DNA of 30,976 bases from a virus. Lineage: Duplodnaviria; Heunggongvirae; Uroviricota; Caudoviricetes. The position numbers and the translations under genes were made by a program. Below are positions 1 to 30,749 of this stretch, in pieces. Location: the IMG/VR virus record IMGVR_UViG_3300030444_000240; one strand, given 5' to 3'. The notes under the pieces were generated by a model, which made no database searches, had not been told where the DNA came from, and saw only the letters and a program-made list of their open reading frames with translations. Numbering within the stretch: position 1 is the first letter of the stretch; each line of letters opens with the position of its first letter.

Positions 1-3000
1 TTTCTCGGTGCCATGACGGAGGATGATGCCCGTCCTGAGGCACTGCGCCGTTTTGAACTGATGGTGGAAGAGGTGGCGCGTAACGCGTCCGCGGTGGCAC
101 AGAACACGGCAGCCGCGAAGAAGTCAGCCAGCGATGCCAGCACATCAGCCCGTGAGGCGGCAACCCATGCGACTGATGCTGCAGGCTCAGCACGCGCAGC
201 CAGCACGTCAGCCGGACAGGCTGCTTCGTCGGCTCAGTCAGCGTCTTCCAGCGCAGGAACGGCATCAACAAAGGCCACTGAAGCATTAAAAAGTGCTGCC
301 GCTGCAGAGTCCTCAAAAAGCGCGGCGGCTACCAGTGCCGGTGCGGCGAAAACGTCAGAAACGAATGCGGCAGCGTCACAACAATCAGCAGCCACTTCTG
401 CATCCACCGCGACCACGAAAGCGTCAGAAGCAGCCACTTCAGCACGGGATGCGTCGGCTTCAAAAGAGGCGGCAAAATCATCAGAAACGAACGCATCATC
501 AAGCGCCAGTAGTGCCGCTTCCTCGGCAACGGCGGCAGGAAATTCCGCGAAGGCGGCAAAAACGTCCGAGACGAACGCCAGGTCTTCTGAAACGGCAGCG
601 GGACAGAGCGCCTCGGCTGCGGCAGGCTCAAAAACAGCGGCTGCATCATCTGCCAGCGCCGCGTCAACAAGTGCCGGGCAGGCCTCAGCCAGTGCCACCG
701 CTGCCGGAAAGTCGGCAGAAAGTGCCGCATCGTCTGCTTCAACAGCCACAACGAAGGCTGGCGAAGCCACTGAGCAGGCCACGGCAGCAGCGAGGTCTGC
801 TTCCGCAGCGAAGACATCCGAAACGAACGCAAAAGCGTCGGAAACCCGTGCAGAATCCTCAAAAACGGCAGCGGCATCGTCCGCCAGTTCGGCGGCGTCA
901 TCGGCATCATCGGCGTCTGCTTCAAAAGATGAGGCGACCAGACAGGCGTCAGCAGCGAAGGGCAGCGCCACGACGGCATCCACGAAGGCGACAGAGGCTG
1001 CTGGCAGTGCGACGGCAGCAGCTCAGAGCAAAAGTACGGCGGAATCTGCAGCAACGCGCGCTGAGACAGCGGCAAAACGGGCAGAGGATATTGCATCCGC
1101 CGTGGCGCTTGAGGATGCGAGCACGACGAAAAAGGGGATAGTACAGCTCAGTAGTGCGACTAACAGCACTTCCGAGTCACTGGCGGCAACACCAAAAGCC
1201 GTTAAGGCCGCGTATGACCTGGCTAACGGGAAATACACCGCACAGGATGCAACGACAGCACAGAAAGGGATAGTTCAGCTAAGCAGTGCGACCAACAGTA
1301 CGTCTGAAACGCTGGCGGCAACGCCAAAGGCAGTAAAATCAGCCTATGACAATGCAGAGAAACGTCTGCAGAAAGACCAGAACGGCGCTGATATACCCGA
1401 TAAGGGACGCTTCCTGAACAACATTAACGCGGTCAGTAAAACAGACTTTGCTGATAAGCGTGGTATGCGTTATGTGCGGGTTAACGCTCCTGCAGGTGCA
1501 ACATCTGGAAAATATTACCCTGTTGTTGTTATGCGTTCTGCTGGCTCAGTAAGCGAACTGGCATCAAGGGTCATTATCACCACGGCAACGCGAACCGCAG
1601 GCGATCCGATGAATAACTGCGAGTTTAACGGATTTGTTATGCCTGGTGGCTGGACTGACAGGGGGCGTTATGCTTATGGAATGTTCTGGCAATATCAAAA
1701 CAATGAACGAGCCATCCACTCAATAATGATGAGTAATAAGGGCGATGATTTGCGCTCTGTGTTCTATGTTGATGGCGCAGCTTTCCCTGTTTTTGCGTTT
1801 ATCGAAGATGGCCTGTCAATATCCGCACCTGGTGCTGATCTCGTTGTTAATGATACGACCTATAAGTTTGGGGCAACAAATCCAGCGACTGAATGTATCG
1901 CGGCGGACGTTATCCTTGATTTTAAGAGTGGGCGTGGTTTTTATGAGTCTCATTCGTTAATCGTTAACGATAACTTGTCATGCAAAAAACTTTTTGCCAC
2001 AGACGAAATTGTAGCGCGTGGTGGTAATCAGATTCGAATGATAGGTGGGGAGTATGGTGCATTATGGCGTAATGATGGCGCTAAAACTTACCTGCTGCTT
2101 ACCAATCAAGGTGATGTTTATGGTGGCTGGAATACATTAAGACCGTTTGCTATTGATAACGCAACCGGCGAACTGGTTATTGGAACCAAACTGTCCGCAA
2201 GTCTGAACGGTAATGCATTAACAGCAACAAAGCTGCAAACGCCAAGACTGGTTTCTGGTGTTGAGTTTGATGGTTCCAAAGATATTACTTTAACCGCCGC
2301 GCATGTGGCTGCTTTTGCCAGAAGGGCAACGGATACATATGCCGATGCGGATGGTGGCGTTCCCTGGAATGCCGAATCAGGCGCTTACAATGTCACCCGC
2401 TCTGGCGACAGCTATATTCTGGTTAACTTCTATACCGGAGTCGGAAGTTGCCGGACCCTGCAGATGAAGGCGCATTACAGAAATGGTGGTCTGTTCTACC
2501 GTTCTTCAAGAGACGGTTATGGTTTTGAGGAAGGCTGGGCAGAAGTTTATACCTCGAAAAATCTTCCACCAGAAAGCTACCCAGTCGGCGCACCAATCCC
2601 GTGGCCATCAGATACCGTTCCGTCTGGTTATGCCCTGATGCAGGGGCAGACTTTTGACAAATCTGCCTACCCGAAACTTGCAGCCGCTTATCCGTCAGGC
2701 GTGATCCCTGATATGCGTGGCTGGACGATTAAGGGCAAACCCGCCAGTGGTCGTGCCGTATTGTCTCAGGAACAGGACGGCATTAAATCGCACACCCACA
2801 GCGCCAGCGCATCCAGTACGGATTTGGGTACGAAAACCACATCGTCGTTTGATTACGGCACTAAATCCACGAATAACACCGGGGCGCATACCCATAGTTT
2901 AAGTGGCAGCACGAATGCAGCTGGTAATCACAGCCATAGAGATGGCCGTCGATTTAACCCCAGTGTTTTTAAAGATACTTATCAATATGGTTATACAAGC

Positions 3001-3267
3001 TCAGGTCAAAATACCTGGGATGTACAAGGCTCAGTAGGTATGTCTACGGGGTGGTTAGCTAATACCAGTACAGATGGTAATCATAGCCACTCACTGTCCG
3101 GCACAGCAGCATCTGCAGGTGCACACGCGCATACTGTCGGTATTGGTGCTCATACGCACTCTGTTGCGATTGGCTCACATGGACACACCATCACCGTTAA
3201 CGCTGCTGGTAACGCGGAAAACACCGTCAAAAACATCGCATTTAACTACATTGTGAGGCTTGCATAA
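1..3267 (+). CDS. stf: Side tail fiber protein, lambda Stf-like (5' partial; frame open from window position 1)
   Basis: Translation begins [24 protein letters not shown], then a long Ala/Ser/Thr-rich segment with KTSETNA repeats, and ends with PIPWPSD...[10 protein letters not shown] and His-rich GAHTHS/GSHGHT repeats and [11 protein letters not shown], matching the lambda Stf architecture as recalled. The central part (about 1380-2550) is a different, non-repetitive domain, and there is a tandem repeat of a [28 protein letters not shown] unit at about 1129-1350. Confidence 0.9.
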
Positions 3268-3838
3268 TGGCATTCAGAATGAGTGAACAACCACGGACCA
3301 TAAAAATTTATAATCTGCTGGCCGGAACTAATGAATTTATTGGTGAAGGTGACGCATATATTCCACCTCATACAGGTCTGCCTGCAAACAGTACCGATAT
3401 TGCACNNNNNNNNNNNNNNNNNNNNNNNNNNNNNNNNNNNNNNNNNNNNNNNNNNNNNNNNNNNNNNNNNCATCTCGTTGAAGATCATCGGGGTAAAACG
3501 GTTTATGACGTGGCTTCCGGCGACGCGTTATTTATTTCTGAACTCGGACCGCTACCGGAAAATGTTACCTGGTTGTCGCCGGGAGGGGAATATCAGAAGT
3601 GGAACGGCACAGCCTGGGTGAAGGATACGGAAGCAGAAAAACTGTTCCGGATCCGGGAGGCAGAAGAAACAAAAAACAGCCTGATGCAGGTAGCCAGTGA
3701 GCATATTGCGCCACTTCAGGATGCTGTAGATCTGGAAATCGCAACGGAGGAAGAAATCTCGTTGCTGGAAGCATGGAAGAAGTATCGGGTGTTGCTGAAC
3801 CGTGTTGATACATCAACTGCACCTGATATTGAGTGGCC
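3141..3838. repeat. Direct repeat copy 1 (stf 3' end plus tfa), about 700 bp, nearly identical by eye to 27794-28482
   Basis: Aligned by eye: tattggtgctcatacgcact... through ...gatattga(g/a)tggcc, with scattered substitutions. Copy 1 contains the N gap. Confidence 0.8.
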
Positions 3839-3860
3839 GATAATTCCTGTAACATCATAG
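3267..3860 (+). CDS. tfa: Tail fiber assembly protein (Tfa), copy 1; interrupted by an N gap
   Basis: [46 protein letters not shown] ... matches lambda Tfa as recalled; the ATG overlaps the stf stop (TAATG). Residues across 3406-3470 are unknown. Confidence 0.85.
3406..3470. other. Assembly gap or masked bases (65 N)
   Basis: Run of n characters in the sequence. Confidence 1.
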
Positions 3861-6816: not shown

Positions 6817-7716
6817 TTATGTCTGGATGTGGTCGTCAACACATCCTCTTTTAAATACAGGCGCTTTTACCTTAGTTGGATCATCTGTTTTAAAGATTTT
6901 CAATCGTTCACTGAAGAACATTACCTCAGATCCTTTGTACCGATCTTGAGCACTGTAGTTTATTCCATATACTAATGATGATGTCTTATACATAGCTTGG
7001 ATCTCAGGAGTGTTATCGTAAGAAACAATCCAAGGTGTTTTAATATTATTCTGTACGACTTTTGCAACCCTAACATGATCATCATGATTATAATGGTTGA
7101 TATATAAACCTTTACCTTTTATGTAATAAGGTGGATCCAAATATGTTAATGAGTTTTGTGGCAATTGAATAACTATTTTTTTAATGAAATCAATTGCATC
7201 CATGTTATATAAATCTATTCTGTGACGATTTTCTGATATTTTATGGATTCGAGAAATCAAATCACTCTTATTATAGCGAGCGTCAAGCTTCCATTTCCCT
7301 TCTTGATTTTTACCGCCAATTACTCCACCTTTTAATATTCCAGAACGATTTGTTCTATTGAGAAAAAAGGTTGAGAAACCAATTGTTAAAAGATCATGGT
7401 CTTTAGGATTATTAATTATATCTTTCTGCCTAAACCATTCATCCATTGTAACTTCAGTTCTTTCAATTAAAGAACATAATTGATCTGCATGATTTAATAC
7501 ACTGTGCCAAAAAGCATAAACAGAAATATTAATATCATTAAGGATGATTTTTTCAGCTGCATTTAGATGTAACAGTTTCAATGCTAAACCAGCACCCCCA
7601 GCATATGGTTCGGCATAATGTATAGGCGAAAGATTATTTTCTTCAATAAGCCGAAGCATGAAATTTGCAAGCTTGCCTTTACCGCCAGGATAGCGAAGTG
7701 GGGTGTTAAAACGCAT
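6817..7716 (-). CDS. DNA N6-adenine methyltransferase, Dam/D12 class
   Basis: N-terminal RYPGGK, EPYAGGAG (AdoMet-binding motif I-like) and DPPY catalytic motif; 299 aa. Confidence 0.8.
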   Translation of the reverse strand: MRFNTPLRYPGGKGKLANFMLRLIEENNLSPIHYAEPYAGGAGLALKLLHLNAAEKIILNDINISVYAFWHSVLNHADQLCSLIERTEVTMDEWFRQKDIINNPKDHDLLTIGFSTFFLNRTNRSGILKGGVIGGKNQEGKWKLDARYNKSDLISRIHKISENRHRIDLYNMDAIDFIKKIVIQLPQNSLTYLDPPYYIKGKGLYINHYNHDDHVRVAKVVQNNIKTPWIVSYDNTPEIQAMYKTSSLVYGINYSAQDRYKGSEVMFFSERLKIFKTDDPTKVKAPVFKRGCVDDHIQT

Positions 7717-7750
7717 ATGATACCTCTAAATGTCAGATCTAAAGTATATC

Positions 7751-7789
7751 AAAAAAAGGGCTTTGTGGCCATCACATAAAGCCCTTTTT
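7751..7789 (-). terminator. Intrinsic terminator between the OLD-like gene and the MTase gene
   Basis: gggcttt-loop-aaagccc hairpin flanked by an A7 run and a T5 run; on the minus strand the stem is followed by a T-run. Confidence 0.6.
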
Positions 7790-7795
7790 AATCAA

Positions 7796-9529
7796 TTAGT
7801 TATCTGACAGATATGATGAGATGGTAGCAGAATCGACACCATGTCCACTTGTCATAATAACTTTAAGACTCTTTATTAGTTCATTCTTGAAGCTATCCGA
7901 TTGCACAGGATTTTTCTCGACCCAATATCGATATGGGTTATCTTTAACTCGCCCTTTTACTTGGGCCTGAAATTGAGTCGTATGTGCAAAATCTTTAAAC
8001 AGTTTTCTAACTATCCCGCCATGGTTTTTGTTAACTTTTTTATAATTATCTATAAGGATTTTTAAATCAATCGGAGCGTTACCAATCTTTAGCGTTGCAA
8101 TTATGTCTTTAGCTGTTTTCATAAAAACAGCTTTTGTAAATTTATTTTTATTTTCCCAATATGCATCATCAGGTGGTAAATTATATAAAAACTCAAAAAT
8201 CATTTGGTCTGGAGGTAAGGTGCTTGGAAGCAAACATAAGTTTTTTTCTTTTTTGGCTTTTTTTGCATTAGCACTATTGTCGTGAACAACATCACCGTCT
8301 AAGACGATCAAGCTTTTAGCTGTAAATTCTGGTATTTTTCTTGCCATTAAGTCAAGCATGGCAGAGCAGCTAATATTTATATTCCCTAATGGATTTAATA
8401 TTTTATTTATTTTTCGATCTGTTATCAATTGTTTGAAAAAGTCGAAACCTTCTTTGTCTTCAAAATATACATTTGCCTTTGGAAGACAAATGTCATCATT
8501 AATTTTTACAGTTTCAACATGTAAATCAGCGTGGATATCTGTCCATGAAAGATTATTCTTTGTTTTAATATCTCCATATGTGTCTGTAAGATATATTGTT
8601 TTAAAGCTATCACTATCTTGTTTTGAACGATTATAGATATCCTCTATTATTAATGGAGAGTGCGAGGTCATGATTATTTGCAGATCGTATTGTTTTGCTG
8701 CTTTAGTTAGAATATTAATTAGCTCTAACTGTGCAGCAGGGAAAAGACCTGCATCGGCTTCATCAATTAACAATATTCCGCCATGATAATCAGAATAAGT
8801 TTCCTTCAATCTTTTAAATGAAAAAATTGCTTGGATTAATTGTCCAACATTATCTTCACCAACAGATACTGATTGGTGATCATAATTGTCACCATGGACA
8901 ACCATTGAATCGATAGTACCTTTTGTTGCTGTTACTGAGCTTCCATTGTTTTTTAGTAAGAGTTGGTTACTCATCATTCTAATTTCATCAGAATTTTCAT
9001 TGATGTACTGAACATCCCGTGTTGAGTAATCAGTCCTTAATGTAATAGGAAGAAGTCGTGCTAAGCTTAAAAAAATAACAGGATGAGTAACGTTTCTACT
9101 TTGGTTTTTTTCCGGTATTGAATCATTTCCCCTGACTACAGGCCTTGATTTATCTCTGTCACTGTAGCTGTATAAACCTAATGTTAGTTTTTCAAGATGT
9201 TTGTTCGATGCACCATCATAGACACTAATTTTGACGTCCATTGAACCAGGAACATCAAATTGTTCTGAAAGCCTAAAATGTTCGCTGAAAGCTGACTTGA
9301 AGCTGCCATTTGTTAATGTTTTATATTGTGTTAAATCAGTCTCAGGGTTTTTGGTAAAGTCCTTTGTAAAGCTAAATATTTGGGCGATAATGCCAAGAAT
9401 TGTGGATTTAGATGTGCCATTTTTACCACAAATAACAGTTAGGCGAGAACCAAACTCGATGTTTATATTTTTCAGTCCGCGAAACTTCACAACATTTATA
9501 TTTTTTAGTTTGGTAATTTGATTTGCCAT
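7796..9529 (-). CDS. OLD-family ATP-dependent nuclease-like protein (ABC ATPase plus C-terminal Toprim-like domain)
   Basis: Walker A ICGKNGTSKST, Walker B ILLIDEAD, TSHSP motif, then C-terminal VYFEDKEGFDFF and LIVLDGD (DxD). Start chosen at MANQITKL (9529), which has a GGAG 9-13 nt upstream and a palindromic hairpin beyond it; the ORF track extends to 9580. Confidence 0.7.
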   Translation of the reverse strand: MANQITKLKNINVVKFRGLKNINIEFGSRLTVICGKNGTSKSTILGIIAQIFSFTKDFTKNPETDLTQYKTLTNGSFKSAFSEHFRLSEQFDVPGSMDVKISVYDGASNKHLEKLTLGLYSYSDRDKSRPVVRGNDSIPEKNQSRNVTHPVIFLSLARLLPITLRTDYSTRDVQYINENSDEIRMMSNQLLLKNNGSSVTATKGTIDSMVVHGDNYDHQSVSVGEDNVGQLIQAIFSFKRLKETYSDYHGGILLIDEADAGLFPAAQLELINILTKAAKQYDLQIIMTSHSPLIIEDIYNRSKQDSDSFKTIYLTDTYGDIKTKNNLSWTDIHADLHVETVKINDDICLPKANVYFEDKEGFDFFKQLITDRKINKILNPLGNINISCSAMLDLMARKIPEFTAKSLIVLDGDVVHDNSANAKKAKKEKNLCLLPSTLPPDQMIFEFLYNLPPDDAYWENKNKFTKAVFMKTAKDIIATLKIGNAPIDLKILIDNYKKVNKNHGGIVRKLFKDFAHTTQFQAQVKGRVKDNPYRYWVEKNPVQSDSFKNELIKSLKVIMTSGHGVDSATISSYLSDN

Positions 9530-9551
9530 GTTTCTATCTTGCTCCGTAAAA

Positions 9552-9570
9552 TGGCCACAAATTGTGGCCA
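9552..9570. other. Perfect 9+1+9 palindrome between the int 3' end and the OLD-like start
   Basis: tggccacaa-a-ttgtggcca; on the minus strand it is followed by ATTTTA. Could be the int terminator or a recombination or regulatory site. Confidence 0.4.
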
Positions 9571-9587
9571 ATAGTTTCATGCTTGGA

Positions 9588-10754
9588 TTATATTGTTATC
9601 TTCTTCAAGCTTGTTTGTCCATCATATTCCTTCAGATATGAGCCATAGTGCCTGAAAAGCATCTCAGGCCCTTTATGCCCCATTTGAGCTGCAAGCCAAA
9701 ACAGGTTTGCTCCCCGGCTGATATGTCTGGTGGCGAATGTATGCCTGGTTTGATATGGGTTTCTGTAACGAATACCTGCTTTTCGCAATGTTGGCACCCA
9801 TGCTTTTTTCCTAATTGCATCAGCACTTGCCCAGGGTTTATTGGTCTTTGGATCTTCAAAGACAGTAGCATCCTTCATGAATGTAAATGGCTTCTGGTTT
9901 ATCAACGCCAACATTGCTTCTTCAGTCAGTTCAACTTTACGGGTACCGGCTTTTGTCTTTGTTCCTTTGATAACTCCGACAACACTTGCGCTCTGAACAT
10001 GGGCTGTTTTTCCAACAAAGTCGATATCATGCCATCGTAGGGCACATAATTCAGAACTACGCAGGCCTGTATGTATGGCGAACCGGAACAGATTTTCCCA
10101 TTGTTTGTTTCCGGCTGCTGCTAGTAATGCATCAACTTCTGCTGGTGATAGCGGATCAACCACATAGCTGCTTTCTGCTTCTGACTTATCACTTTGGTAG
10201 CGCGAAGCAGTTACCAACGATACGGGGTTAATTTGAAGTACCCCATCGGTTACGGCTTCATCAAGTGCTGACCGCAGGAAAGATAACTGGTTGCGAATTG
10301 TTTTTAAGGTCGTTTTCTGGCTTTGAATCCACGCTTTCAGGATTGCTGGTGTTAATTCACTTGCAGGGCAAATGTGGAGTGAGGCTAACGCACTACGGCA
10401 TTTTTTATAACCACCAATCGTAGATGGTGAAAGTTTTCTCGTTTCGCAGATTTCAAGGTATTCGTCCAGGTACATTTTTACCGTTTTGCCTGCAGCAGCA
10501 TTACCAAAAATTTTCAAACGAGCAGAACGGGGAAAATATTCCGCATAAATGAATGTTCCCCTTTCGATCTTATTATGAATTTCGCCGAGTGTGCGCTCGG
10601 CGTATTTAATGTTCTTTGGTGTTACTTCCAGATTGGAAAGAGGCTCACGACATTTAACGCCTTTGTAGGTGAAAGTTATATTGATCGTTTCGCCCTGGCG
10701 GTGTTTCCTGATTGTTACGCCGCGCGGTAGTTTGAGCAGTTTTGTCTGGCCCAT
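9588..10754 (-). CDS. int: Tyrosine site-specific integrase
   Basis: 388 aa; C-terminal catalytic region with RHTFATRH (HxxR) and LFWLAAQMGHKGPEMLFRHYGSY (catalytic Tyr); N-terminal arm-binding-like segment. Confidence 0.9.
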   Translation of the reverse strand: MGQTKLLKLPRGVTIRKHRQGETINITFTYKGVKCREPLSNLEVTPKNIKYAERTLGEIHNKIERGTFIYAEYFPRSARLKIFGNAAAGKTVKMYLDEYLEICETRKLSPSTIGGYKKCRSALASLHICPASELTPAILKAWIQSQKTTLKTIRNQLSFLRSALDEAVTDGVLQINPVSLVTASRYQSDKSEAESSYVVDPLSPAEVDALLAAAGNKQWENLFRFAIHTGLRSSELCALRWHDIDFVGKTAHVQSASVVGVIKGTKTKAGTRKVELTEEAMLALINQKPFTFMKDATVFEDPKTNKPWASADAIRKKAWVPTLRKAGIRYRNPYQTRHTFATRHISRGANLFWLAAQMGHKGPEMLFRHYGSYLKEYDGQTSLKKITI

Positions 10755-19723: not shown

Positions 19724-20719
19724 GTGACCGTGAGAGCACTACTGACCCCTGAAATTGCCCCGCGTATGGGGATCGTATTGTTCAGGCCAGGTTCAGAGCT
19801 GATGCCCCTGTTTATGCAGGGGCGTGTCCTGCTGGAGCCTGAGCCGGAGCGTTATTCATCTTTCGCCAGTGGTGCCGTTCCGGCGGCATCACAACCGCTG
19901 GCGGATGATCCTGCCGTTCGGGCCGTGTTCCGCAATGAGGCAGTGATCCGTCGTGCTGGTGGCGTGGAATGTCTTGAAAGCTGGTTACTTCGTGAAAAAG
20001 GCTGCCAGTGGCCTCATTCCGACTGGCACAGCGAGAACATGACCACAATGCGACACGCTCCGGGTGCAATCCGTCTGTGCTGGCACTGCGATAACCAGCT
20101 GCGCGATCAGTTCACGGAACGGCTGGAATCAATGGCAACGGATAACTGTGCCCGCTGGGTGTTGTCTGTTGTGCGTCGGGATCTCGGTTTTGATGACAGT
20201 CACGTTGTGACAATGCCGGAACTGTGCTGGTGGCTGATTCGTAATGATCTGGCGGATGCCTTACCGGAAAGTGCAGCCCGTAAGGCACTGAGATTACCGA
20301 AGCCTGTTGTGCCGTCTGTTACCCGGGAAAGTGACCTTGTGCCTTCGGTTCCTGCCACCAGCATCATCCAGGATAAGGCGAAAAAGGTGCTGGCGCTGAA
20401 AGTGGATCCGGAGTCGCCGGAGTCTTTTATGTTACGCCCAAAACGTCGCCGCTGGGTTAATGAAAAGTACACGCGCTGGGTTAAGACGCAGCCGTGTGCA
20501 TGTTGTGGAAAGCCCGCCGATGATCCCCATCACCTGATAGGCCACGGTCAGGGTGGAATGGGTACAAAAGCGCATGACCTTTTTGTGTTGCCTTTGTGCA
20601 GAAAGCATCACGACGAGCTGCATGCGGATACCGTGGCATTTGAAGAGAAGTATGGCTCCCAGCTGGAGCTGATATTTCGTTTTATCGATCGTGCGCTGGC
20701 GATTGGTGTGCTGGCCTGA
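19724..20719 (+). CDS. DUF968-like phage protein with C-terminal Cys/His (HNH-like) motif
   Basis: 331 aa; C-terminal [18 protein letters not shown] ... CRKHHDELH. Sits upstream of Q, as DUF968 genes do in lambdoid prophages. Confidence 0.6.
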
Positions 20720-20736
20720 TTTTGTGGAGAAAGTTG

Positions 20737-21114
20737 ATGCGTGATATTCAGATGGTTCTGGAGCGTTGGGGAGCATGGGCGGCTAATAATCATGAAGATG
20801 TGACCTGGTCGTCCATTGCCGCCGGTTTTAAGGGATTAATTCCTTCAAAAGTAAAATCTCGCCCGCAATGTTGTGACGATGACGCGATGATCATTTGCGG
20901 GTGCATGGCCCGTCTGAAAAAGAACAACAGCGATTTGCACGATTTATTGGTGGACTATTATGTCGGCGGCATGACTTTTATGGCGCTTGCACGTAAGCAT
21001 GGGCGATCTGATTGTTGGGTTGGCAGGATGCTCCAGAAAGCTGAGGGCGTAGTGGAGGGTATGCTGATGGTGTTGGATCTCCGATTGGAGATGGATGCTG
21101 ATTGTTCGAAATAA
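20737..21114 (+). CDS. Late-gene antiterminator Q-like protein
   Basis: Last gene of the early-right operon, immediately followed by a tR'-type terminator; Cys-rich ([12 protein letters not shown]). Start set at the ATG (MRDIQ); the track uses a TTG at 20722. Confidence 0.7.
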
Positions 21115-21212
21115 TTAAAGGAAAAGTTGCTGTCTGATTCTCATTAGTCTAACATTTTAAATGTTGGAATCGCAACGTAGTTATTATCATATAACAGCTT
21201 GTTTCCTGATTT

Positions 21213-21241
21213 AGCCAGCCTCCCCAAAGGCTGGTTTTTTT
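21213..21241 (+). terminator. tR'-like intrinsic terminator downstream of Q
   Basis: ccagcc-tccccaaa-ggctgg hairpin followed by a T7 run. Confidence 0.6.
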
Positions 21242-21269
21242 CTAATAAGTATTATTTCGGGTAGGGATT

Positions 21270-21794
21270 TTATTGTTTAACCCATAATAATTCATTGACA
21301 TTGAATCCCAACTTTTGAGCGGTTCGCACATAGTCTGCTTTTACTTTATCTGGAATAGTTGGGGTCCTTGCCAGAATCCATAGGTATTCTCTGTTCGGAC
21401 CACTGACAAGAGCATACTTATACTCATCATCCAGTTTGATTACATTATAGCCACCATAGAAGGGGCCAAAAAACGAAACCTTCAACGCTGCAGTTTTAGT
21501 ATCTCCAGTAAAGTATGCTTTACCTTCGCTCTCGCTCCATTTATTTTTCGTTGGATCGTATCCACGGTTAAGTACACGAATCCCTCCGTCGTTCCGTTTT
21601 CCATAAGTAGCGCTGACCTGTTCCAGACCACGTTCGAACCGGTTCTCGAGGCGAGCTATTTCATACCACTTTCCGAGGTAGCGGTTGGCGTCAAAATTTG
21701 TAATCGGCTGCACACCTTTAGGTGGTGTCGGGGCCTTACATGCTATAAGAGTGAAAGAGAGTGCAATGCCAGTCAACACAGGCCATAACTTCAT
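21270..21794 (-). CDS. blc: Bacterial lipocalin (Blc-like) outer-membrane lipoprotein
   Basis: Signal peptide with lipobox (LIAC); NFDANRYLGKWYEIARLENRFERG and KVSFFGPFYGGYNVI match Blc as recalled. Confidence 0.85.
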   Translation of the reverse strand: MKLWPVLTGIALSFTLIACKAPTPPKGVQPITNFDANRYLGKWYEIARLENRFERGLEQVSATYGKRNDGGIRVLNRGYDPTKNKWSESEGKAYFTGDTKTAALKVSFFGPFYGGYNVIKLDDEYKYALVSGPNREYLWILARTPTIPDKVKADYVRTAQKLGFNVNELLWVKQ

Positions 21795-21986
21795 AATAAA
21801 TCCTGTACTTTTGATAGTTGAGAGTAAGTATGAAAGATAGATGATTACGACCGATCACTTAAAGAACTTTCATACTATATTAGGAATAGTCCATAACAGA
21901 AAAATTGTCAGTGATGACGCCAGAAAGGCAATTTATTCCGTGCACTACACAGTTTATGTGTTAATGAATTAGTCAAGGGGGAGGAT

Positions 21987-22946
21987 ATGATAAAAAAACC
22001 TGTGATTGGAATCAGCGGTTGTCTGGCCGGTTCTGCTGTTCGTTTTGATGGTGGTCACAAAAGAGCTGACTTTTTAATGGACAAATTAGTGGAATGGGTA
22101 ACATTCAGACCAGTATGTCCGGAAATGGCTATAGGGCTGCCAGTTCCGCGTCCTGCTCTACGTCTTGTGCGCTCGACGCAAGGAAATATTCGGATGTGTT
22201 TCAGCCACGACCAGAATGAGGATGTGACAGAGAGAATGACAGAGTTTAGTCGTTCTTATATGGACAAATTAAAGGATGTATCGGGGTTTGTGGTTTGTGC
22301 TAAATCTCCCAGCTGTGGCATGGAGCGCGTGCGTGTCTATGATGAAAATGGTAATCGAGGTCGTAAAGATGGAGTGGGACTATTTACGAGCACTTTGATG
22401 GAAAAGTTTTCCTGGCTACCGGTTGAAGAGGATGGGCGATTACATGATCCAGTGCTTCGTGAGAATTTTGTTGAAAGAGTTTTTGCTTTGCATGAGCTCA
22501 ATCACCTTTACAAGGAGAAATTATCAAGAAGAGAGTTATTAGCTTTTCATAGTCGTTATAAGCTTCAGTTGTTGGCGCATAGTCAGGCAGGCTATAAAGA
22601 TATGGGACCATTTGTGGCTGCAATACACGAGTGGGCGGACCTTGAATCATACTTTGAGGTGTATCGTGATAAGCTGATGGCGATTCTCAGAAAACCTGCA
22701 TCACGTAAAAATCACACGAATGTGCTGATGCATATACAGGGGTATTTTAGTAACTACTTAAGTACACGCCAGCGTAAAGAGTTGAGCGAGGTTATACTTA
22801 ACTATCGTTCTGGCACATTACCTCTTCTTGCGCCGTTGACTCTGCTGAAGCATTATCTGGGTGAGTATCCTAATGATTACTTGCTTACACAGAATTACTT
22901 CGATCCCTATCCGGACGAACTGGCTCTAAGACTGATGGTAAATTAA
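21987..22946 (+). CDS. DUF523/DUF1722 fusion protein (YbbK/YbgA-like; DUF523 resembles TudS-type desulfidases)
   Basis: 319 aa with N-terminal Cys residues (GISGCLAG, VCPE, SCGMERV); GGAGG RBS upstream. Family assignment from memory. Confidence 0.6.
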   Translation: MIKKPVIGISGCLAGSAVRFDGGHKRADFLMDKLVEWVTFRPVCPEMAIGLPVPRPALRLVRSTQGNIRMCFSHDQNEDVTERMTEFSRSYMDKLKDVSGFVVCAKSPSCGMERVRVYDENGNRGRKDGVGLFTSTLMEKFSWLPVEEDGRLHDPVLRENFVERVFALHELNHLYKEKLSRRELLAFHSRYKLQLLAHSQAGYKDMGPFVAAIHEWADLESYFEVYRDKLMAILRKPASRKNHTNVLMHIQGYFSNYLSTRQRKELSEVILNYRSGTLPLLAPLTLLKHYLGEYPNDYLLTQNYFDPYPDELALRLMVN

Positions 22947-23297
22947 TTGTATGCGATATCATCCAAAAGGATGAGTTCCTGCATGCAGGATATTTACAAT
23001 CGTAAAAACTACACTATGATACCCAGAGTGTCAGTTTGTATAAAAACTCTGTTTACGCTGAAGAAACCATTGAGATGCAACTTAAAGTTGGTAAACATGC
23101 CAGTCAAAATATATAATATTATGATTCCACGCAGCTATATATAATATAACAGATTGGTTTAATAATTTGTCTTTGTGAGTTAAATACATAATTTTATACT
23201 TGTGATGCAATGAGATTTTCCTTATTGTTGAACTGGCGAATATTGATTTTCCACCTATACTTACCTGGTGTAACCCCAATGATATCAGGTGGATAAT

Positions 23298-24024
23298 ATG
23301 CCATACATATGTTCTATCATTTTGGTGTTGAACTCGTTTGATGTCCGAATTGGTAAAGAAGATATTTTATTTAAAAAAGGAAGTGCTGTTCTCATTGATT
23401 ACAATTTAAAAGATTTTTTTTTCATCAAATATAGATCATGCAATGATCGTAGATGTTGAAGAGAAAACAGTTAATGATTTCTTTAAAAGCAACACACTCT
23501 CACCTTTTTCTGTAAGAAGGTTTTATCCGGCATACTTGATGGTGGAATGTGAAGATTTTTCATTGTTAAAGAACTTGATTGCATGCTTGAATTGTGATGG
23601 CAGAACTGTGGATTTTGTTAGAAATCAAATATCACTTGCATGTCTTGCTATCTTATCTTCAGAGAAAATAGTGCAAAGTTTTTTATTTGGATGTCTTAAT
23701 AGTTTAGGAAGTAAAGTTAAGGCTATTATTCACACGGATATATCTGCAGCATGGAGACTTTGTGATATATCTTCAAGACTGTATCTGAGTGAAAGTCTGT
23801 TAAAAGGAAAATTAAAGCACGAAGGCTTATCATTTAGTAAGTTAATTCTTGAAGAGCGAATGGTGATGGCGGAAAGGTTATTAAGCTACAATTTATATTC
23901 TGTTGGAAAAGTTACTGAGATATGCGGTTATGAAAACACGTCATATTTTGTAAGTGTTTTCAGAAGATATTTTGGTGTTCCTCCCCATCAATATTCATCA
24001 AGATTTTTTTTAGAAAAGACATGA
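23298..24024 (+). pseudogene. AraC-family regulator gene interrupted by a frameshift at a T9 tract
   Basis: N-terminal frame (23298-23453) MPYICSIILVLNSFDVRIGKED... and C-terminal frame (23443-24024) with an AraC HTH region (FRRYFGVPPHQY) align to the intact paralog at 29997-30749; the frames meet at T9 (23414-23422), and T8 would restore one ORF. Confidence 0.6.
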
Positions 24025-24217
24025 TGTAACGTGATGCGTTTTAATGATTTTGTAATTTTCGTATTTGATAATTGTATGATGCTTTCAGCTACGCCAGAAT
24101 AATCGCTGGCGTTTTTCTTTTTGAATAGATGTTCAAGCCTTACGCTAATGTAACTTCTATACCTTTCCTCTTCGTTCCGAACCGTGTACACCATCCGTTA
24201 TTTGCGGAGGTGAGGCT

Positions 24218-24433
24218 ATGAAATCCATGGATAAGTTAACAACGGGCATTGCCTACGGCACCTCCGCAGGCAGTGCTGGCTACTGGTTTTTACAGCTGCT
24301 CGATAAAGTCACGCCCTCACAGTGGGCAGCAATAGGTGTGCTGGGTAGCTTGGTATTTGGCCTGCTGACGTACCTGACAAACCTTTATTTCAAGATTAAA
24401 GAAGATAAGCGCAAGGCTGCACGGGGAGAGTAA
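24218..24433 (+). CDS. Phage-21-type class II holin (pinholin, S21-like)
   Basis: [26 protein letters not shown]...[19 protein letters not shown] closely matches S21 as recalled, including the dual-start MKSM motif. Confidence 0.85.
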
Positions 24434-24437
24434 TTCA

Positions 24438-24752
24438 ATGACTCAAAACTATGAACTGATTGTGAAAGGGATCCGCAATTTTGAGAATAAAGTTACGGTA
24501 ACTTTAGCGTTACGGGACAAAAAACGCTTTGACGGTGAAATTTTTGACCTGGACATCTCGCTGGACCGTGTTGAAGGTGCCGCGCTGGAGTTTTATGAGG
24601 CAGCAGCCAGAAGGAGCATCAGACAGGTCTTCCTGGATGTTGCTGCCGGGTTATGTGAAGGGGACGAGCTGTTGCCAGAAACGCGCCCCTGTTCAGAGGC
24701 GCGGTATACCATAAAAATTAACAGTTCAGATAACTCGATTACGGGTTGTTAG
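24438..24752 (+). CDS. Hypothetical protein (104 aa) inserted between holin and endolysin
   Basis: ORF with no recognisable motif; its position is unusual for a lysis cassette. Confidence 0.45.
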   Translation: MTQNYELIVKGIRNFENKVTVTLALRDKKRFDGEIFDLDISLDRVEGAALEFYEAAARRSIRQVFLDVAAGLCEGDELLPETRPCSEARYTIKINSSDNSITGC

Positions 24753-24988
24753 CCTTTTGTTTCAGTTGGTTTTCCAATATCTTTCATTGGTAGCAACATT
24801 TCCAGATTGCTTTTGATATATGGATTATTTACATGTTCATTTAATTGATGAATGATTCCATTTTTTTCATTCTGGTCCAATACGGTAAATATTACTGTAA
24901 TCATATATTTAAGAGCTTCAATTTCTTTTGCTGTTGATGCAGGAGATGAGCAGTCAGCTGTAATATTGATAAAAACTTCTTTTTGCAT
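24749..24988 (-). CDS. Hypothetical protein (79 aa), AT-rich, antisense to the lysis operon
   Basis: ORF only; low-GC by eye. Confidence 0.3.
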   Translation of the reverse strand: MQKEVFINITADCSSPASTAKEIEALKYMITVIFTVLDQNEKNGIIHQLNEHVNNPYIKSNLEMLLPMKDIGKPTETKG

Positions 24989-26251: not shown

Positions 26252-26944
26252 TTATTCAATGGCATCTAAAATTTCATATGCTTCATTAACAAAATCTCTT
26301 ATTTCTTTTAGACATAACTCTACAAAAGGAATGACCTCATAATCTGTACCGTGGAATCTTATTTTTTTCTCTTCGGTTATGTTAATATTGATGGGGATTC
26401 CGTTCCCTGATTTTTCAACTTTACCATTTTCAATGGTGAAGTCTTCAATTCTCTGTCCATTGGTGAAATTATCTCTGAAAATGATTTTTGATGTAGCATC
26501 TGTCTTAATTAATCCAAACCCATTGATATTAACATCTATTCCTCGAACAATACTATCTTCACTCAATGGGATTGGTTTCCTATGTTTTACTTCGTTCGTG
26601 AGGTTACACATCATTCCAAGCCAGTTATTACCAGTTTGATAGTCTTGGATTGAAACAAAAACTGCATATAATGGAGATAATTCAGGTTGCTGGCAGTTTA
26701 ATTTTTTAATAAAGAAAGCATCTAAAAATTTTTTCTCGCCGTATGGGAAATAAATTTTTGGCCGAGGGGTTGATTGGTTAGTGGTATGTTTTTCATAACT
26801 ATCATTCGCAACGTATTCTAATGCGCTTCTTAAATTTTCAAGTATTGATTTAACCTTTACTGGTTTTATTTGTTGCGTATCTTTTAATATTTCAACGGTT
26901 TCTTCAACTTCTTGCAATAAATCTAACGTTCCTTCTCTGGACAT
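26252..26944 (-). CDS. Hypothetical protein (230 aa), AT-rich moron between the lysis cassette and cos
   Basis: ORF of unknown family in low-GC DNA, opposite in orientation to the flanking phage genes. Confidence 0.5.
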   Translation of the reverse strand: MSREGTLDLLQEVEETVEILKDTQQIKPVKVKSILENLRSALEYVANDSYEKHTTNQSTPRPKIYFPYGEKKFLDAFFIKKLNCQQPELSPLYAVFVSIQDYQTGNNWLGMMCNLTNEVKHRKPIPLSEDSIVRGIDVNINGFGLIKTDATSKIIFRDNFTNGQRIEDFTIENGKVEKSGNGIPININITEEKKIRFHGTDYEVIPFVELCLKEIRDFVNEAYEILDAIE

Positions 26945-27287: not shown

Positions 27288-27908
27288 ATGGAAGTCAACA
27301 AAAAGCAGCTGGCTGACATTTTCGGTGCGAGTATCCGTACCATTCAGAACTGGCAGGAACAGGGAATGCCCGTTCTGCGAGGCGGTGGCAAGGGTAATGA
27401 GGTGCTTTATGACTCTGCCGCCGTTATAAAATGGTATGCCGAAAGGGATGCTGAAATTGAGAACGAAAAGCTGCGCCGGGAGGTTGAAGAACTGCGCCAG
27501 GCCAGCGAGGCAGATCTCCAGCCAGGGACTATTGAGTACGAACGCCATCGACTTACGCGTGCGCAGGCCGACGCACAGGAACTGAAGAATGCCAGAGACT
27601 CCGCTGAAGTGGTGGAAACCGCATTCTGTACTTTCGTGCTGTCGCGGATCGCAGGTGAAATTGCCAGTATTCTCGACGGGATCCCCCTGTCGGTGCAGCG
27701 GCGTTTTCCGGAACTGGAAAACCGACATGTTGATTTCCTGAAACGGGATATCATCAAAGCCATGAACAAAGCAGCCGCGCTGGATGAACTGATATTGGTG
27801 CTCATACGCACTCCGTTGCGATTGGTTCACATGGACATACCATCACCGTTAACGCTGCTGGTAACGCGGAAAACACCGTCAAAAACATCGCATTTAACTA
27901 TATTGTGA
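27288..27908 (+). pseudogene. nu1: Terminase small subunit Nu1, 3'-truncated and fused out of frame to the 3' end of a tail fiber gene
   Basis: MEVNKKQLADIFGASIRTIQNWQEQGMPVLRGGGKGNEVLYDSAAVIKWY... matches lambda Nu1 to about residue 169 (AAALDELI); from about 27794 the DNA matches the stf 3' end read in another frame. Confidence 0.8.
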
Positions 27909-28482
27909 GGCTTGCATAATGGCATTCAGAATGAGTGAACAACCACGGACCATAAAAATTTATAATCTGCTGGCCGGAACTAATGAATTTATTGGTGAAG
28001 GTGACGCATATATTCCGCCTCATACAGGTCTGCCAGCAAACAGTACCGATATTGCACCGCCAGATATTCCGGCAGGCTTCGTGGCTGTTTTCAACAGTGA
28101 TGAGGCATCGTGGCATCTCGTTGAAGATCATCGGGGTAAAACGGTTTATGACGTGGCTTCCGGCGACGCGTTATTTATTTCTGAACTCGGTCCGTTACCG
28201 GAAAATGCCACTTGGTTATCCCCGGAAGGGGAGTTTCAGAAGTGGAACGGCACAGCCTGGGTGAAAGATGCAGAAGCAGAAAAACTATTCCGGATCCGGG
28301 AGGCGGAAGAAACAAAAAACAGCCTGATGCAGGCAGCGAATGAGCATATTGCGCCACTTCAGGATGCTGTAGATCTGGAAATCGCAACGGAGGAAGAAAA
28401 CTCGTTGCTGGAAGCCTGGAAAAAGTATCGGGTGTTGCTGAACCGTGTTAATACAACAACTGCTCCGGATATTGAATGGCCA
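27794..28482. repeat. Direct repeat copy 2 (stf 3' end plus tfa), nearly identical by eye to 3141-3838
   Basis: See copy 1; the junction with Nu1 is at about 27794-27796. Confidence 0.8.
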
Positions 28483-28500
28483 GTAGCACCTATAGGGTAA
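27919..28500 (+). CDS. tfa: Tail fiber assembly protein (Tfa), copy 2, intact
   Basis: 193 aa, [74 protein letters not shown]...; nearly identical to copy 1 until the C-terminal tail. Confidence 0.9.
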
Positions 28501-29996: not shown

Positions 29997-30749
29997 GTGG
30001 ATGATATGGCAACTACATGTTCAGTTATATTGATTTTGGAGTCCTTTGATGTTTATTTCGGAAAAGAGAGTGTGTTTCTGGAGAGAGGTTCATCTGTACT
30101 TGTCGACTCTAGCTCTAGAGATTTTTTCCTGACATATCCTGAAAGAGTGATAGTGGCGGATTTTGGCGCTGAGTTTATTAGTCGCTATTTGAAAGCTAAT
30201 AACTTAAGGGATATTTCTGATTGTAGGGAATATCCATCTTATTTAAAAATAAACTTTGCTGACTTCAGTTTAATTAAAGGATTAATTAGTTGGGCTAATC
30301 ACTGTGCTGAATACATAGAAATTTTTGATGAGTCTATTGCTTTTACATGTCTCTCTGCATTTTCTTCTGAAAAACAATTTGGAGTATTTCTGTTTGAATG
30401 TTTGAAAAGCACAGGGGCTAAAGTTAAAACGATTATTCATACGGATTTATCTGCACCATGGCGTCTTAAGGATATATCATCAAGATTATATCTCAGCGAA
30501 AGTTTACTAAAGAGGAAATTGAAAGAAGAGGGGGTATCATTCAGTAAGATCATACTTGATGAGAGGATGCAAATGGCTGAATATTTACTCTGCACTCGTT
30601 GTTATCCTATTAGTAAAGTAGCTAAGGTCTGTGGTTATGCCAGTGTCTCATACTTTACTTATGTATTTAGACGTTATTTTGGTGTTTCTCCAAGTCAATA
30701 CTCTCAGAGGAGTTCAGAAAGTAAAATTCTTACTCACCAGGGAATCTGA
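29997..30749 (+). CDS. AraC-family transcriptional regulator (AppY/EnvY-like)
   Basis: 250 aa; C-terminal HTH region WRLKDISSRLYLSESLLKRKLKEEGVSFSKIILDERMQMAEYLL ... YFTYVFRRYFGVSPSQY. Confidence 0.8.
   Translation: MDDMATTCSVILILESFDVYFGKESVFLERGSSVLVDSSSRDFFLTYPERVIVADFGAEFISRYLKANNLRDISDCREYPSYLKINFADFSLIKGLISWANHCAEYIEIFDESIAFTCLSAFSSEKQFGVFLFECLKSTGAKVKTIIHTDLSAPWRLKDISSRLYLSESLLKRKLKEEGVSFSKIILDERMQMAEYLLCTRCYPISKVAKVCGYASVSYFTYVFRRYFGVSPSQYSQRSSESKILTHQGI

What the first reader, a model, noticed from the sequence alone, without database searches (positions are those of the whole stretch)
21270..24024. Moron cluster in the Q-to-lysis interval (the slot that carries stx in Stx phages)
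Between the tR'-like terminator and the holin are a Blc-like lipocalin lipoprotein (minus strand), a DUF523/DUF1722 protein with conserved cysteines (plus strand, strong RBS) and a frameshifted AraC-like regulator, in visibly AT-rich flanking DNA. Plus-strand morons here would be under Q-dependent late transcription and so induced with the prophage. A lipocalin and a possible thionucleobase-modifying enzyme are unusual phage cargo.
Basis: partly seen in the sequence, partly recalled or inferred. Interest (0 to 1): 0.55.

Follow-up and report, generated by a model that had tools for sequence, protein, structure and literature searches.

The report
Known prophage cargo: lipocalin, tRNA desulfidase, regulator
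Between the late-gene activator Q and the lysis genes of a defective E. coli prophage sits a common, already described three-gene cargo cassette: an outer-membrane lipocalin, the tRNA 4-thiouridine-removing enzyme RudS, and an acid-resistance-type regulator that is broken here by a one-base slip.

Summary
Between Q (20737-21114) and the holin (24218-24433) lie three genes.

- **Blc-type lipocalin lipoprotein** (minus strand).
- **TudS(DUF523)+DUF1722 fusion** (plus strand). It is 93.4% identical to RudS_vir of phage 1H12, which has been shown experimentally to lower tRNA 4-thiouridine.
- **YdeO/PatE-like AraC regulator**, frameshifted by T9 where intact genes have T8.

The cassette is not unusual. 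The blc-rudS pair is in about 19-21% of 5426 complete E. coli genomes, always chromosomal, and in 12 isolated lambdoid phages. blc was already listed as a frequent lambda moron.

The cassette is composite. The blc-rudS pair comes from a conserved enterobacterial chromosomal locus (blc / MerR-type regulator / transthyretin-like / rudS). The AraC gene is a separate, AT-rich moron that also occurs alone behind other Q types.

Q-dependent read-through of rudS and araC is plausible from the layout but untested, and this prophage has lost its structural genes.

One new detail concerns the T-tract in the regulator. It is T7 in 235 genomes, T8 in 253 and T9 in 1, and T7 lies on several haplotypes, so frameshifting is recurrent.

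Verdict: real, ordinary, largely known.

The parts
20737..21114 (+). Antiterminator Q. Distantly Q21-like; closest to the Q of DLP12/ev243-type phages.
   Evidence: Pfam Phage_antitermQ E 2.5e-51. PDB Q21 E 1.9e-8. Homology with the porin-carrying phage ev243 ends at 21096.
21213..21243 (+). tR'-like intrinsic terminator. It lies downstream of the presumed late promoter, which could not be located with confidence in 21086-21160.
   Evidence: 9-bp stem with 5 GC pairs plus a T7 run. The 91-nt stretch 21160-21250 containing it folds at -26.2 kcal/mol, z = -4.5. Conserved in the 1H12 and IdasGreatGrand alleles.
21270..21794 (-). Blc-type outer-membrane lipocalin lipoprotein (174 aa), antisense to late transcription.
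   Evidence: It is 97.1% identical to 1H12 gp65. dN/dS is 0.06 against the 1H12 allele.
21795..21986 (.). Divergent blc/rudS intergenic region (192 nt, GC 0.34). Promoters are presumed but not mapped.
   Evidence: The same head-to-head adjacency is seen in Citrobacter sedlakii L013. No remnant of the MerR-type or transthyretin-like genes was found.
21987..22946 (+). RudS: a TudS/DUF523 [4Fe-4S] desulfidase domain fused to DUF1722. It is a tRNA 4-thiouridine (s4U) desulfidase.
   Evidence: It is 93.4% identical to RudS_vir (1H12 gp66), which lowered tRNA s4U when overexpressed in E. coli (PMC11417400). dN/dS is 0.10.
22947..23297 (.). AT-rich junction between the blc-rudS module and the AraC module. 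It contains promoter-like sites at 22993-23020 and 23088-23117.
   Evidence: Only 58.5% identical between the two cassette alleles, against 87-95% for the genes. Promoter scan.
23298..24024 (+). YdeO/PatE-like AraC-family regulator. Here it is a pseudogene or truncated gene: a +1 frameshift in a T-tract (T9 at 23414-23422, intact = T8). A 193-aa ORF restarts at 23443.
   Evidence: The intact gene is 241-243 aa in S43 and in phages. Tract counts.
24091..24123 (+). Second intrinsic terminator, between araC and the holin. It would insulate the lysis genes from moron transcription.
   Evidence: 7-bp stem with 5 GC pairs followed by TTTTTCTTTTT. The hairpin is conserved in 1H12 and in the paralogous slot of L072.
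24218..24433 (+). Holin (P21 S / EssD type). It marks the right boundary of the slot.
   Evidence: Pfam Phage_holin_2_1 E 2e-35. Homology with ev243 resumes at 24207.

Best explanation
This is a composite lysogenic-conversion (moron) cassette in the exchangeable Q-to-holin slot of a lambdoid prophage. It is made of two separately acquired modules.

Module 1 is a head-to-head blc/rudS pair. It was captured from a conserved enterobacterial chromosomal locus (blc / MerR-MlrA-type regulator / transthyretin-like gene / rudS), and in the phage copy it has lost its regulator.
- RudS uses a [4Fe-4S] cluster held by Cys12, Cys44 and Cys110 to convert 4-thiouridine in tRNA back to uridine.
- Because s4U8 is the near-UV chromophore that cross-links tRNA and triggers growth delay, a lysogen expressing RudS should be less sensitive to near-UV.
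- Blc is an outer-membrane lipocalin that binds lysophospholipids and fatty acids. I infer that it helps the envelope under the same kind of stress.

Module 2 is an AT-rich PatE/YdeO-like AraC regulator with its own terminator. Members of this family are known to switch on host acid-resistance genes. In this window module 2 is inactivated by a +1 slip in a T8 tract.

Because rudS and araC are co-oriented with the late operon, downstream of tR', Q-modified RNA polymerase should also read through them on induction, as happens for stx.

Shown: gene identities, synteny, distribution, purifying selection, and the enzymatic activity of a 93% identical orthologue. Inferred: expression pattern, benefit to the lysogen, and targets of the regulator.
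For: - Domain and family hits.
- Identity to published phage 1H12 gp65, gp66 and gp67: 97%, 93% and 82%. RudS_vir is from that phage, and all tested RudS proteins, including it, lowered tRNA s4U in vivo. RudS_KT shortened UVA growth delay (PMC11417400).
- Slot behaviour: the same Q and holin flank a porin in ev243-type phages, with homology breaks at 21096 and 24207.
- Chromosomal origin: 41 of 62 non-E. coli Enterobacteriaceae rudS loci have blc upstream on the opposite strand. 35 of them have the full blc / MlrA-like / transthyretin-like / rudS order. Citrobacter sedlakii (L013) and Citrobacter sp. JGM124 (L058) have blc and rudS directly adjacent, as in the phage. None has Q, holin or this AraC.
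- AraC module: paralogues at 64% and 55% identity sit alone between other Q types and the same holin. The gene is 51% identical, and about 70% in the DNA-binding domain, to the AraC gene at 30006-30749. That gene is 99.3% identical at the DNA level to the O157:H7 gene in the CP-933H-like remnant, where PatE (z0321) is reported.
- Moron anatomy: GC 0.32-0.44 against about 0.5 for the phage; a terminator after araC.
- Purifying selection between the two cassette alleles: dN/dS is 0.06 for blc, 0.10 for rudS and 0.27 for araC, compared with 0.085 for Q and 0.05 for holin.
- Prevalence.
Against: - There are no expression or phenotype data for any lysogen carrying the cassette. Promoters are only weak consensus matches, and the scan found no more of them than in shuffled sequence.
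- RudS_vir was among the less active RudS proteins when overexpressed.
- A functional link between Blc and RudS rests on synteny alone.
- The regulator's targets are inferred from a 51% identical paralogue. It scores far below the YdeO equivalog cut-off (123 against 348 bits).
- The regulator is frameshifted in nearly half of the genomes that carry this allele. This argues that it is often dispensable.
- The prophage here is defective, so any benefit to a phage is moot for this locus.
Confidence: 0.75

Rival explanations
1. Phage-benefit (auxiliary gene) model. rudS is kept because Q-antiterminated late transcription delivers it in the UV-induced cell. There it strips s4U from host tRNA and prevents near-UV cross-linking and stringent arrest, securing late protein synthesis and burst size. 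Benefit to the lysogen would be secondary.
For: - rudS is the first sense-strand gene after tR', with no plus-strand terminator before it.
- The phage copy has lost the MerR-type regulator that accompanies chromosomal rudS, so control must come from elsewhere.
- The cassette occurs in viable, plaque-forming lambdoid phages.
- The repressor is a LexA-like S24 protein, so induction is DNA-damage linked.
- RudS overexpression shortens UVA growth delay (PMC11417400).
Against: - Sister phages with the same Q, holin and backbone do without it and carry a porin instead.
- The pair is retained under purifying selection in many defective prophages, including this one. That favours a host-side benefit.
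- RudS removes sulfur from intact s4U. It is not known to repair existing cross-links, and late expression may come too late.
Confidence: 0.15
2. Local-regulator model. The AraC-like protein controls the neighbouring blc and rudS genes, replacing the lost MerR-type regulator, so the three genes form one regulated unit.
For: - AraC-family regulators often act on adjacent genes.
- The three genes travel together in 980 genomes.
- Promoter-like sites lie in the AT-rich spacers.
Against: - Close paralogues occupy the same slot alone, without blc or rudS.
- The rudS-araC junction is the least conserved part of the cassette, at 58.5%.
- The regulator is frameshifted in 235 of 533 genomes while blc and rudS stay intact in the loci examined.
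- The characterised paralogue PatE acts on distant host genes.
Confidence: 0.07
3. Decaying passenger DNA. The cassette in this cryptic prophage has no selected function and merely persists.
For: - The prophage has lost its structural genes.
- araC is frameshifted.
- IS insertions and truncations of blc or rudS occur in some genomes.
Against: - The blc and rudS ORFs are intact here and in more than 1000 genomes.
- dN/dS of 0.06-0.10 is as low as for Q and the holin.
Confidence: 0.03

Closest known systems
Escherichia phage 1H12 (Jouyvirus) gp65-gp67, and identical cassettes in Lambda_ev087 and related phages; phage IdasGreatGrand
   Same: Same gene order between the same type of Q and holin. 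Blc is 97% identical, RudS 93% and AraC 82% to 1H12. All three are 97-99.7% identical to IdasGreatGrand. RudS_vir, the assayed enzyme, is 1H12 gp66.
   Different: In the window the regulator carries a +1 frameshift, and the host element is a defective prophage rather than a viable phage.
Chromosomal rudS loci of Enterobacteriaceae (e.g. Enterobacter cloacae blc / MerR-MlrA-like / transthyretin-like / rudS; Salmonella SPI-2 ORF319 = RudS_ST with a MerR-family regulator)
   Same: The protein is 319 aa (RudS_ST is named ORF319), and the three Cys positions listed for RudS_ST and RudS_vir are 12, 44 and 110, as here. blc is divergently upstream in 41 of 62 species.
   Different: Only 66-77% (RudS) and 69-82% (Blc) identical. 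The phage copy lacks the MerR-type regulator and the transthyretin-like gene. Its GC is 0.435, against 0.47-0.62 for every chromosomal orthologue sampled.
PatE (z0321) and the PsrA/PsrB prophage-encoded AraC-like regulators of EHEC; YdeO/GadX
   Same: About 245-aa two-domain AraC proteins carried by prophages. The best NCBIfam match is YdeO over the full length. The gene is 51% identical to the probable PatE orthologue in the same window. A low-confidence model resembles Rns/CsvR/ToxT.
   Different: Below every equivalog cut-off. The targets are untested. The relationship to PsrA and PsrB could not be checked because no sequences were available. The gene is frameshifted here.
Other cargo of the Q-S slot: stx operons, and nmpC/ompD porin genes (DLP12, ev243)
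   Same: Same position downstream of Q/pR'/tR' and upstream of the holin. The cargo is exchangeable between otherwise similar phages.
   Different: Different genes. The porin and blc are antisense to late transcription, whereas stx, rudS and araC are sense.

Membership tests
RudS (TudS-DUF1722 tRNA s4U desulfidase) | N-terminal TudS/DUF523 domain fused to C-terminal DUF1722 | tested here: met
   PF04463 covers residues 7-149 (E 3e-40) and PF08349 covers 192-309 (E 2e-40).
RudS (TudS-DUF1722 tRNA s4U desulfidase) | Three Cys that ligate the [4Fe-4S] cluster, plus catalytic Glu and Ser | tested here: met
   Cys12, Cys44 and Cys110 match the positions listed for RudS_vir and RudS_ST. Glu46 and Ser107/109 sit in the CPE and SPSC motifs (table in PMC11417400).
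RudS (TudS-DUF1722 tRNA s4U desulfidase) | Lowers tRNA 4-thiouridine in vivo | not testable with these tools
   Shown by overexpression for RudS_vir, which is 93.4% identical. Not shown for this protein or at native expression levels.
Bacterial lipocalin Blc | Lipocalin_2 fold and Blc subfamily score above the curated cut-off | tested here: met
   PF08212 E 7e-44. NF007786 scores 316 bits against a cut-off of 267. 64% identical to the solved E. coli Blc.
Bacterial lipocalin Blc | Lipoprotein signal peptide with lipobox; sorted to the outer membrane | tested here: met
   MKLWPVLTGIALSFTLIAC/K: lipobox LIAC with Lys, not Asp, at +2. Read directly from the sequence. Localisation itself was not tested.
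AraC/XylS family, YdeO/PatE-like subgroup | C-terminal double helix-turn-helix domain | tested here: met
   HTH_18 E 1e-12 and HTH_AraC E 2e-8. The DNA-binding domain is modelled at pLDDT 74-94 and matches AraC-type DNA-binding domains.
AraC/XylS family, YdeO/PatE-like subgroup | Intact full-length reading frame including the N-terminal beta-rich domain | tested here: not met
   T9 instead of T8 at 23414-23422 breaks the frame after about codon 41. In the model the lost part contains the first four beta strands.
AraC/XylS family, YdeO/PatE-like subgroup | Equivalog-level match to YdeO or GadX | tested here: not met
   The intact S43 protein scores 123 bits against YdeO (cut-off 348) and 82 bits against GadX (cut-off 500). 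It is a related but distinct family.
Moron (phage accessory cassette in the sense of Juhala/Hendrix) | Present between core genes in some phages and absent from close relatives | tested here: met
   ev243-type phages share Q and the holin but carry a porin in the slot. The breaks are at 21096 and 24207.
Moron (phage accessory cassette in the sense of Juhala/Hendrix) | Own promoter and terminator; atypical base composition | tested here: inconclusive
   The terminator at 24091-24123 and the low GC (0.32-0.44) are clear. Promoters are only consensus-level matches, no more frequent than in shuffled sequence.
Q-dependent late-operon cargo (stx-like) | Sense orientation between tR' and the holin, with no other barrier to antiterminated polymerase | tested here: met
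   Met for rudS and araC. blc is antisense.
Q-dependent late-operon cargo (stx-like) | Transcript level rises on induction in a Q-dependent way | not testable with these tools
   No expression data were found.

The most novel reading that the evidence does not exclude
RudS is placed as the first sense gene behind tR' so that a UV-induced prophage floods the cell with a tRNA 4-thiouridine eraser. [quoted passage not shown] It would be a phage-encoded epitranscriptome eraser acting as an auxiliary gene for induction in sunlight. Alongside it, the PatE-like regulator would be toggled on and off by slippage in its T8 tract.
Probability: 0.15. Interest if true: 0.6.

Novelty: already known. Interest (0 to 1): 0.27.

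Why it matters
The cassette itself is documented: blc is listed as a lambda moron, RudS_vir has been assayed, and PatE-type regulators have been characterised.

Three modest points may still be useful.

1. The RudS paper states that E. coli lacks RudS. In fact about one in five complete E. coli genomes carries it on a prophage. Strains may therefore differ in tRNA s4U content and near-UV response, which is relevant to UVA and solar disinfection and to s4U-based methods.
2. The phage pair derives from a conserved chromosomal blc-rudS locus. This points to a shared, probably light- or oxidative-stress, role for the lipocalin.
3. The regulator carries a slippage-prone T-tract that is broken in nearly half of the carriers, on several haplotypes. 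This is a cheap natural on/off polymorphism to test.

Tried and rejected
- **SPI-2 hypothesis.** I asked whether the whole cassette equals Salmonella SPI-2 orf70-orf319-orf242. This is rejected for the regulator. The RudS paper calls the Salmonella regulator MerR family, and the regulator next to rudS in Enterobacter is a 241-aa MlrA-like MerR protein, not AraC. Only rudS is shared.
- **Remnants of lost genes.** I searched the phage intergenic regions for remnants of the MerR-type or transthyretin-like genes and found none.
- **RNA families.** The Rfam scan of 20700-24500 gave only sub-threshold terminator-like hits.
- **Repeats.** A 20-nt direct repeat (21185 and 23140, 85% identical) hinted at a duplicated pR' leader. 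Comparison with paralogous slots showed no extended homology, so it is probably chance.
- **Defence systems.** PADLOC gave no hit for any cassette gene.
- **phiv142-3 orf10.** The primer sequences from PMC7724020 do not match the window.
- **PsrA/PsrB.** I tried to link the regulator to PsrA or PsrB. The paper is not held and I had no sequences, so this is unresolved.
- **Source genome.** No record in the complete-genome set covers more than 58% of the window; it is a mosaic.
- **First frameshift count.** My first count with 80-81-nt probes suggested T9 in 1 of 582 genomes and everything else intact. This was misleading because a nearby SNP masked T7. I redid it with SNP-free 60-62-nt probes.
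- **AlphaFold model of the regulator.** It is only moderate (pLDDT 64.5, with residues 67-133 below 50), so full-length fold matches are weak evidence.
- **Late promoter.** pR' could not be pinned down. The candidates (21086-21115 from the scan, and a manual TTGCTG-17-TAACAT at 21127-21155) are weak.
Full report
**Observation**

- 21270-21794 on the minus strand (174 aa);
- 21987-22946 on the plus strand (319 aa);
- a split plus-strand gene, 23289/23298-23459 and 23443-24024.

Profile searches confirm each assignment.
- The first is a Lipocalin_2 protein (E 7e-44). It passes NCBI's Blc subfamily cut-off, 316 against 267 bits.
- The second has a 2-thiouracil desulfurase (DUF523/TudS) domain at residues 7-149 and DUF1722 at 192-309, both near E 1e-40.
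- The third has the AraC double helix-turn-helix, and its best full-length match is YdeO.

The flanks are phage genes. Upstream are DUF968 and a Q antiterminator (PF06530, distantly Q21-like). Downstream are a P21-type holin, YdfR, a lysozyme and an Rz-like protein. A strong intrinsic terminator follows Q at 21213-21243, and a second one lies at 24091-24123 just before the holin. GC falls from 0.52-0.58 in the early region to 0.44 for blc and rudS and 0.32 for araC.

**The frameshift**

Alignment with E. coli S43 and with two phages shows one extra T in a homopolymer: T9 at 23414-23422 against T8. The intact gene encodes 241-243 aa.

**Context**

The window holds a lambdoid prophage running from the integrase (9588-10754) to a tail-fibre assembly gene (27919-28500). 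The ORF at 27288-27908 begins as Nu1. In the near-identical S43 locus it is annotated as a truncated packaging gene abutting a truncated tail-fibre gene. All head and tail genes are therefore deleted, and the element is cryptic.

**What the genes are**

The cassette is present at 88-98% DNA identity in isolated lambdoid phages: IdasGreatGrand, 1H12, Lambda_ev087 and relatives, 12 records in all.

Relative to 1H12, Blc is 97.1% identical, the TudS-DUF1722 protein 93.4% and the regulator 81.5%.

Phage 1H12 gp66 is RudS_vir, studied by Jamontas et al. (NAR 2024, PMC11417400).
- TudS-DUF1722 fusions are tRNA 4-thiouridine desulfidases.
- All six tested, including RudS_vir, lowered tRNA s4U when overexpressed in E. 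coli, by 4.7- to 26-fold. RudS_vir was at the weaker end.
- RudS_KT shortened UVA-induced growth delay.
- The cluster-binding Cys12, Cys44 and Cys110 listed for RudS_vir are present here, as are Glu46 and Ser107/109.

The lipocalin is 64% identical to the crystallised E. coli Blc and has a lipobox, LIAC. Mathieu et al. (Nat Commun 2020, PMC6969025) already listed blc as a moron present in more than half of their gut lambda phages. All three genes have PHROG families of unknown function.

**Prevalence**

- The full Q-to-holin cassette is found at 80% or more coverage in 980 of 5426 complete E. coli genomes.
- The blc-rudS pair is found in 1047 genomes at 80% or more coverage and in 1151 with any match. 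Of 1208 matched places, 1206 are chromosomal.
- The RudS paper's remark that E. coli lacks RudS holds for K-12 but not for the species.
- Among 50,697 phage records, full-length RudS occurs only in the 12 E. coli lambdoid phages.

**Slot behaviour**

Phages such as ev243 share the Q gene (84% amino-acid identity) and the holin but carry an OmpD/NmpC-type porin between them. Homology with the window stops at 21096, inside the 3' end of Q, and resumes at 24207, 11 nt before the holin start. The exchangeable unit therefore includes the end of Q, the late promoter and terminator region, and the cargo.

**Origin**

A scan of one genome per species found rudS in 62 non-E. coli loci, almost all Enterobacteriaceae (Citrobacter, Enterobacter, Kluyvera, Klebsiella, Leclercia, Lelliottia; also Pectobacterium and Dickeya). 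Identity is 66-77%.

- In 41 of them a blc gene (69-82% identical) lies upstream on the opposite strand.
- In 35 the order is blc(-), an MlrA-like MerR regulator, a transthyretin-like gene, then rudS.
- In Citrobacter sedlakii (L013) and Citrobacter sp. JGM124 (L058), blc and rudS are directly head to head, as in the phage.
- None of these loci has Q, the holin or the AraC gene.

The pair was therefore taken as a block from a conserved chromosomal locus, and the regulator was lost. No remnant of the lost genes remains in the phage spacers. The phage rudS has GC 0.435, below every chromosomal orthologue sampled (0.47-0.62).

**The regulator**

The regulator has a different history.
- Its family is narrow and confined to E. 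coli.
- Paralogues at 64% and 55% identity sit alone between lambda-type (PF03589) or PF06323-type Q genes and the same holin.
- The rudS-araC spacer is the least conserved part of the cassette, at 58.5%.
- It is 51% identical to a second AraC gene in the window (30006-30749).
- That second gene is 99.3% identical at the DNA level to the gene at 312980-313723 of O157:H7 TW14359. There it lies at the end of a small CP-933H-like remnant, the location reported for PatE (z0321), an activator of gadE and hdeA acid-resistance genes. I inferred this orthology from position and did not verify it by locus tag.
- A moderate AlphaFold model (pLDDT 64.5) has a beta-rich N-terminal part and a confident DNA-binding domain. 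Its full-length matches are Rns, CsvR and ToxT. This is weak support only.

**Selection**

Between the two cassette alleles, dN/dS is 0.06 for blc, 0.10 for rudS and 0.27 for araC. For comparison it is 0.085 for Q and 0.05 for the holin. blc and rudS are as constrained as core phage genes. The regulator is less so.

**The T-tract**

I probed complete genomes with SNP-free 60-62-nt probes. Of the 533 genomes that carry this allele:
- 235 have T7;
- 253 have T8;
- 1 has T9 (NCTC11023).

PGAP marks the T7 genes as frameshifted.

A SNP table over 2.2 kb for 14 sequences places T7 on at least three haplotypes. Two of these are locally identical to T8 haplotypes. The window's T9 sequence has no substitutions relative to S43, which has T8. 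The tract has therefore slipped several times independently.

The 1H12-type allele has no tract at this position. After either frameshift a 193-195-aa ORF from an internal ATG remains. Whether this is neutral decay, selection for loss, or a reversible switch is open.

**Mechanism**

The most likely reading is a two-module lysogenic-conversion cassette.
- RudS removes the near-UV chromophore s4U from tRNA.
- Blc supports the outer membrane.
- The PatE-like protein, when intact, reprogrammes host stress genes.
- The terminator after araC shields the lysis genes from moron transcription.
- On induction, Q-modified polymerase would read through both terminators and raise rudS and araC expression, while running antisense through blc.

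The expression pattern, the benefit and the regulator's targets are inferences, and I found no expression data. The main rival is that rudS serves the phage during UV induction. It is attractive but untested. It is weakened by sister phages that lack the gene and by conservation of the pair in defective prophages.

**Verdict**

The finding is accurate and the annotation can be sharpened, but the cassette is common and its parts are already described. Interest is low to moderate. The T-tract polymorphism and the prevalence of prophage-borne RudS in E. coli are the only points that go beyond the literature I could read.

Noticed in passing
window 23414-23422 (T-tract in the AraC-like gene): The tract is polymorphic across complete E. 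coli genomes: T7 in 235, T8 (intact) in 253 and T9 in 1, out of 533 carriers. T7 occurs on at least three haplotypes, so frameshifting is recurrent rather than one clonal pseudogene.
   Followed up: partly
window 30006-30749 (+): A second AraC-family gene lies at the right end of the prophage. It is 51% identical to the cassette regulator and 99.3% identical at the DNA level to the O157:H7 gene in the CP-933H-like remnant. It is probably the acid-resistance activator PatE.
   Followed up: partly
window 6817-9580 (-): Next to the integrase lie a Dam-like methyltransferase, which matches PADLOC PD-Lambda-5_B (E 5e-124), and an adjacent 594-aa AAA_15/AAA_21 ATPase (PtuA/AriA/GajA-like hits). This is a likely PD-Lambda-5-type defence pair.
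   Followed up: no
window 27288-28500: The ORF at 27288-27908 starts as terminase small subunit Nu1 (164 of 164 profile positions). It continues into what the S43 annotation calls a tail-fibre C-terminus, followed by a tail-fibre assembly gene. All head and tail genes are deleted, so the prophage is cryptic.
   Followed up: partly
window 26252-26944 (-) and 24749-24988 (-): Two more minus-strand ORFs in AT-rich DNA (GC 0.32-0.40) interrupt the lysis/packaging region. One is 230 aa (phrog_13652) and the other 79 aa (phrog_21218). Both are of unknown function with no Pfam, NCBIfam or PADLOC hit. They are probably further morons.
   Followed up: no
window 13-3860 (+): A 1084-aa tail-fibre gene and a tail-fibre assembly gene lie upstream of the integrase. 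They suggest the end of a neighbouring prophage, giving a tandem or mosaic arrangement.
   Followed up: no
L059 and L064 (contigs of a MAG labelled Candidatus Nanosynbacter sp. D148_maxbin.008): These short contigs carry the E. coli prophage cassette. Blc, the regulator and the holin are 98.6-99.4% identical at the protein level, the matched part of Q is 100% identical, and the intergenic DNA is 100% identical. This is almost certainly binning contamination of the MAG.
   Followed up: no
window 21185-21204 and 23140-23159: A 20-nt direct repeat (85% identical) lies downstream of Q and upstream of araC. No extended homology to paralogous slots was found, so it is probably chance.
   Followed up: yes
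window 24000-24024 (3' end of araC): A second T8 run is followed by an A-run of 4 or 5. This changes the last residues of the regulator between alleles...EKT* here and in S43, against ...EKEMM*...EKGKM* or ...EKDMM* elsewhere.
   Followed up: no
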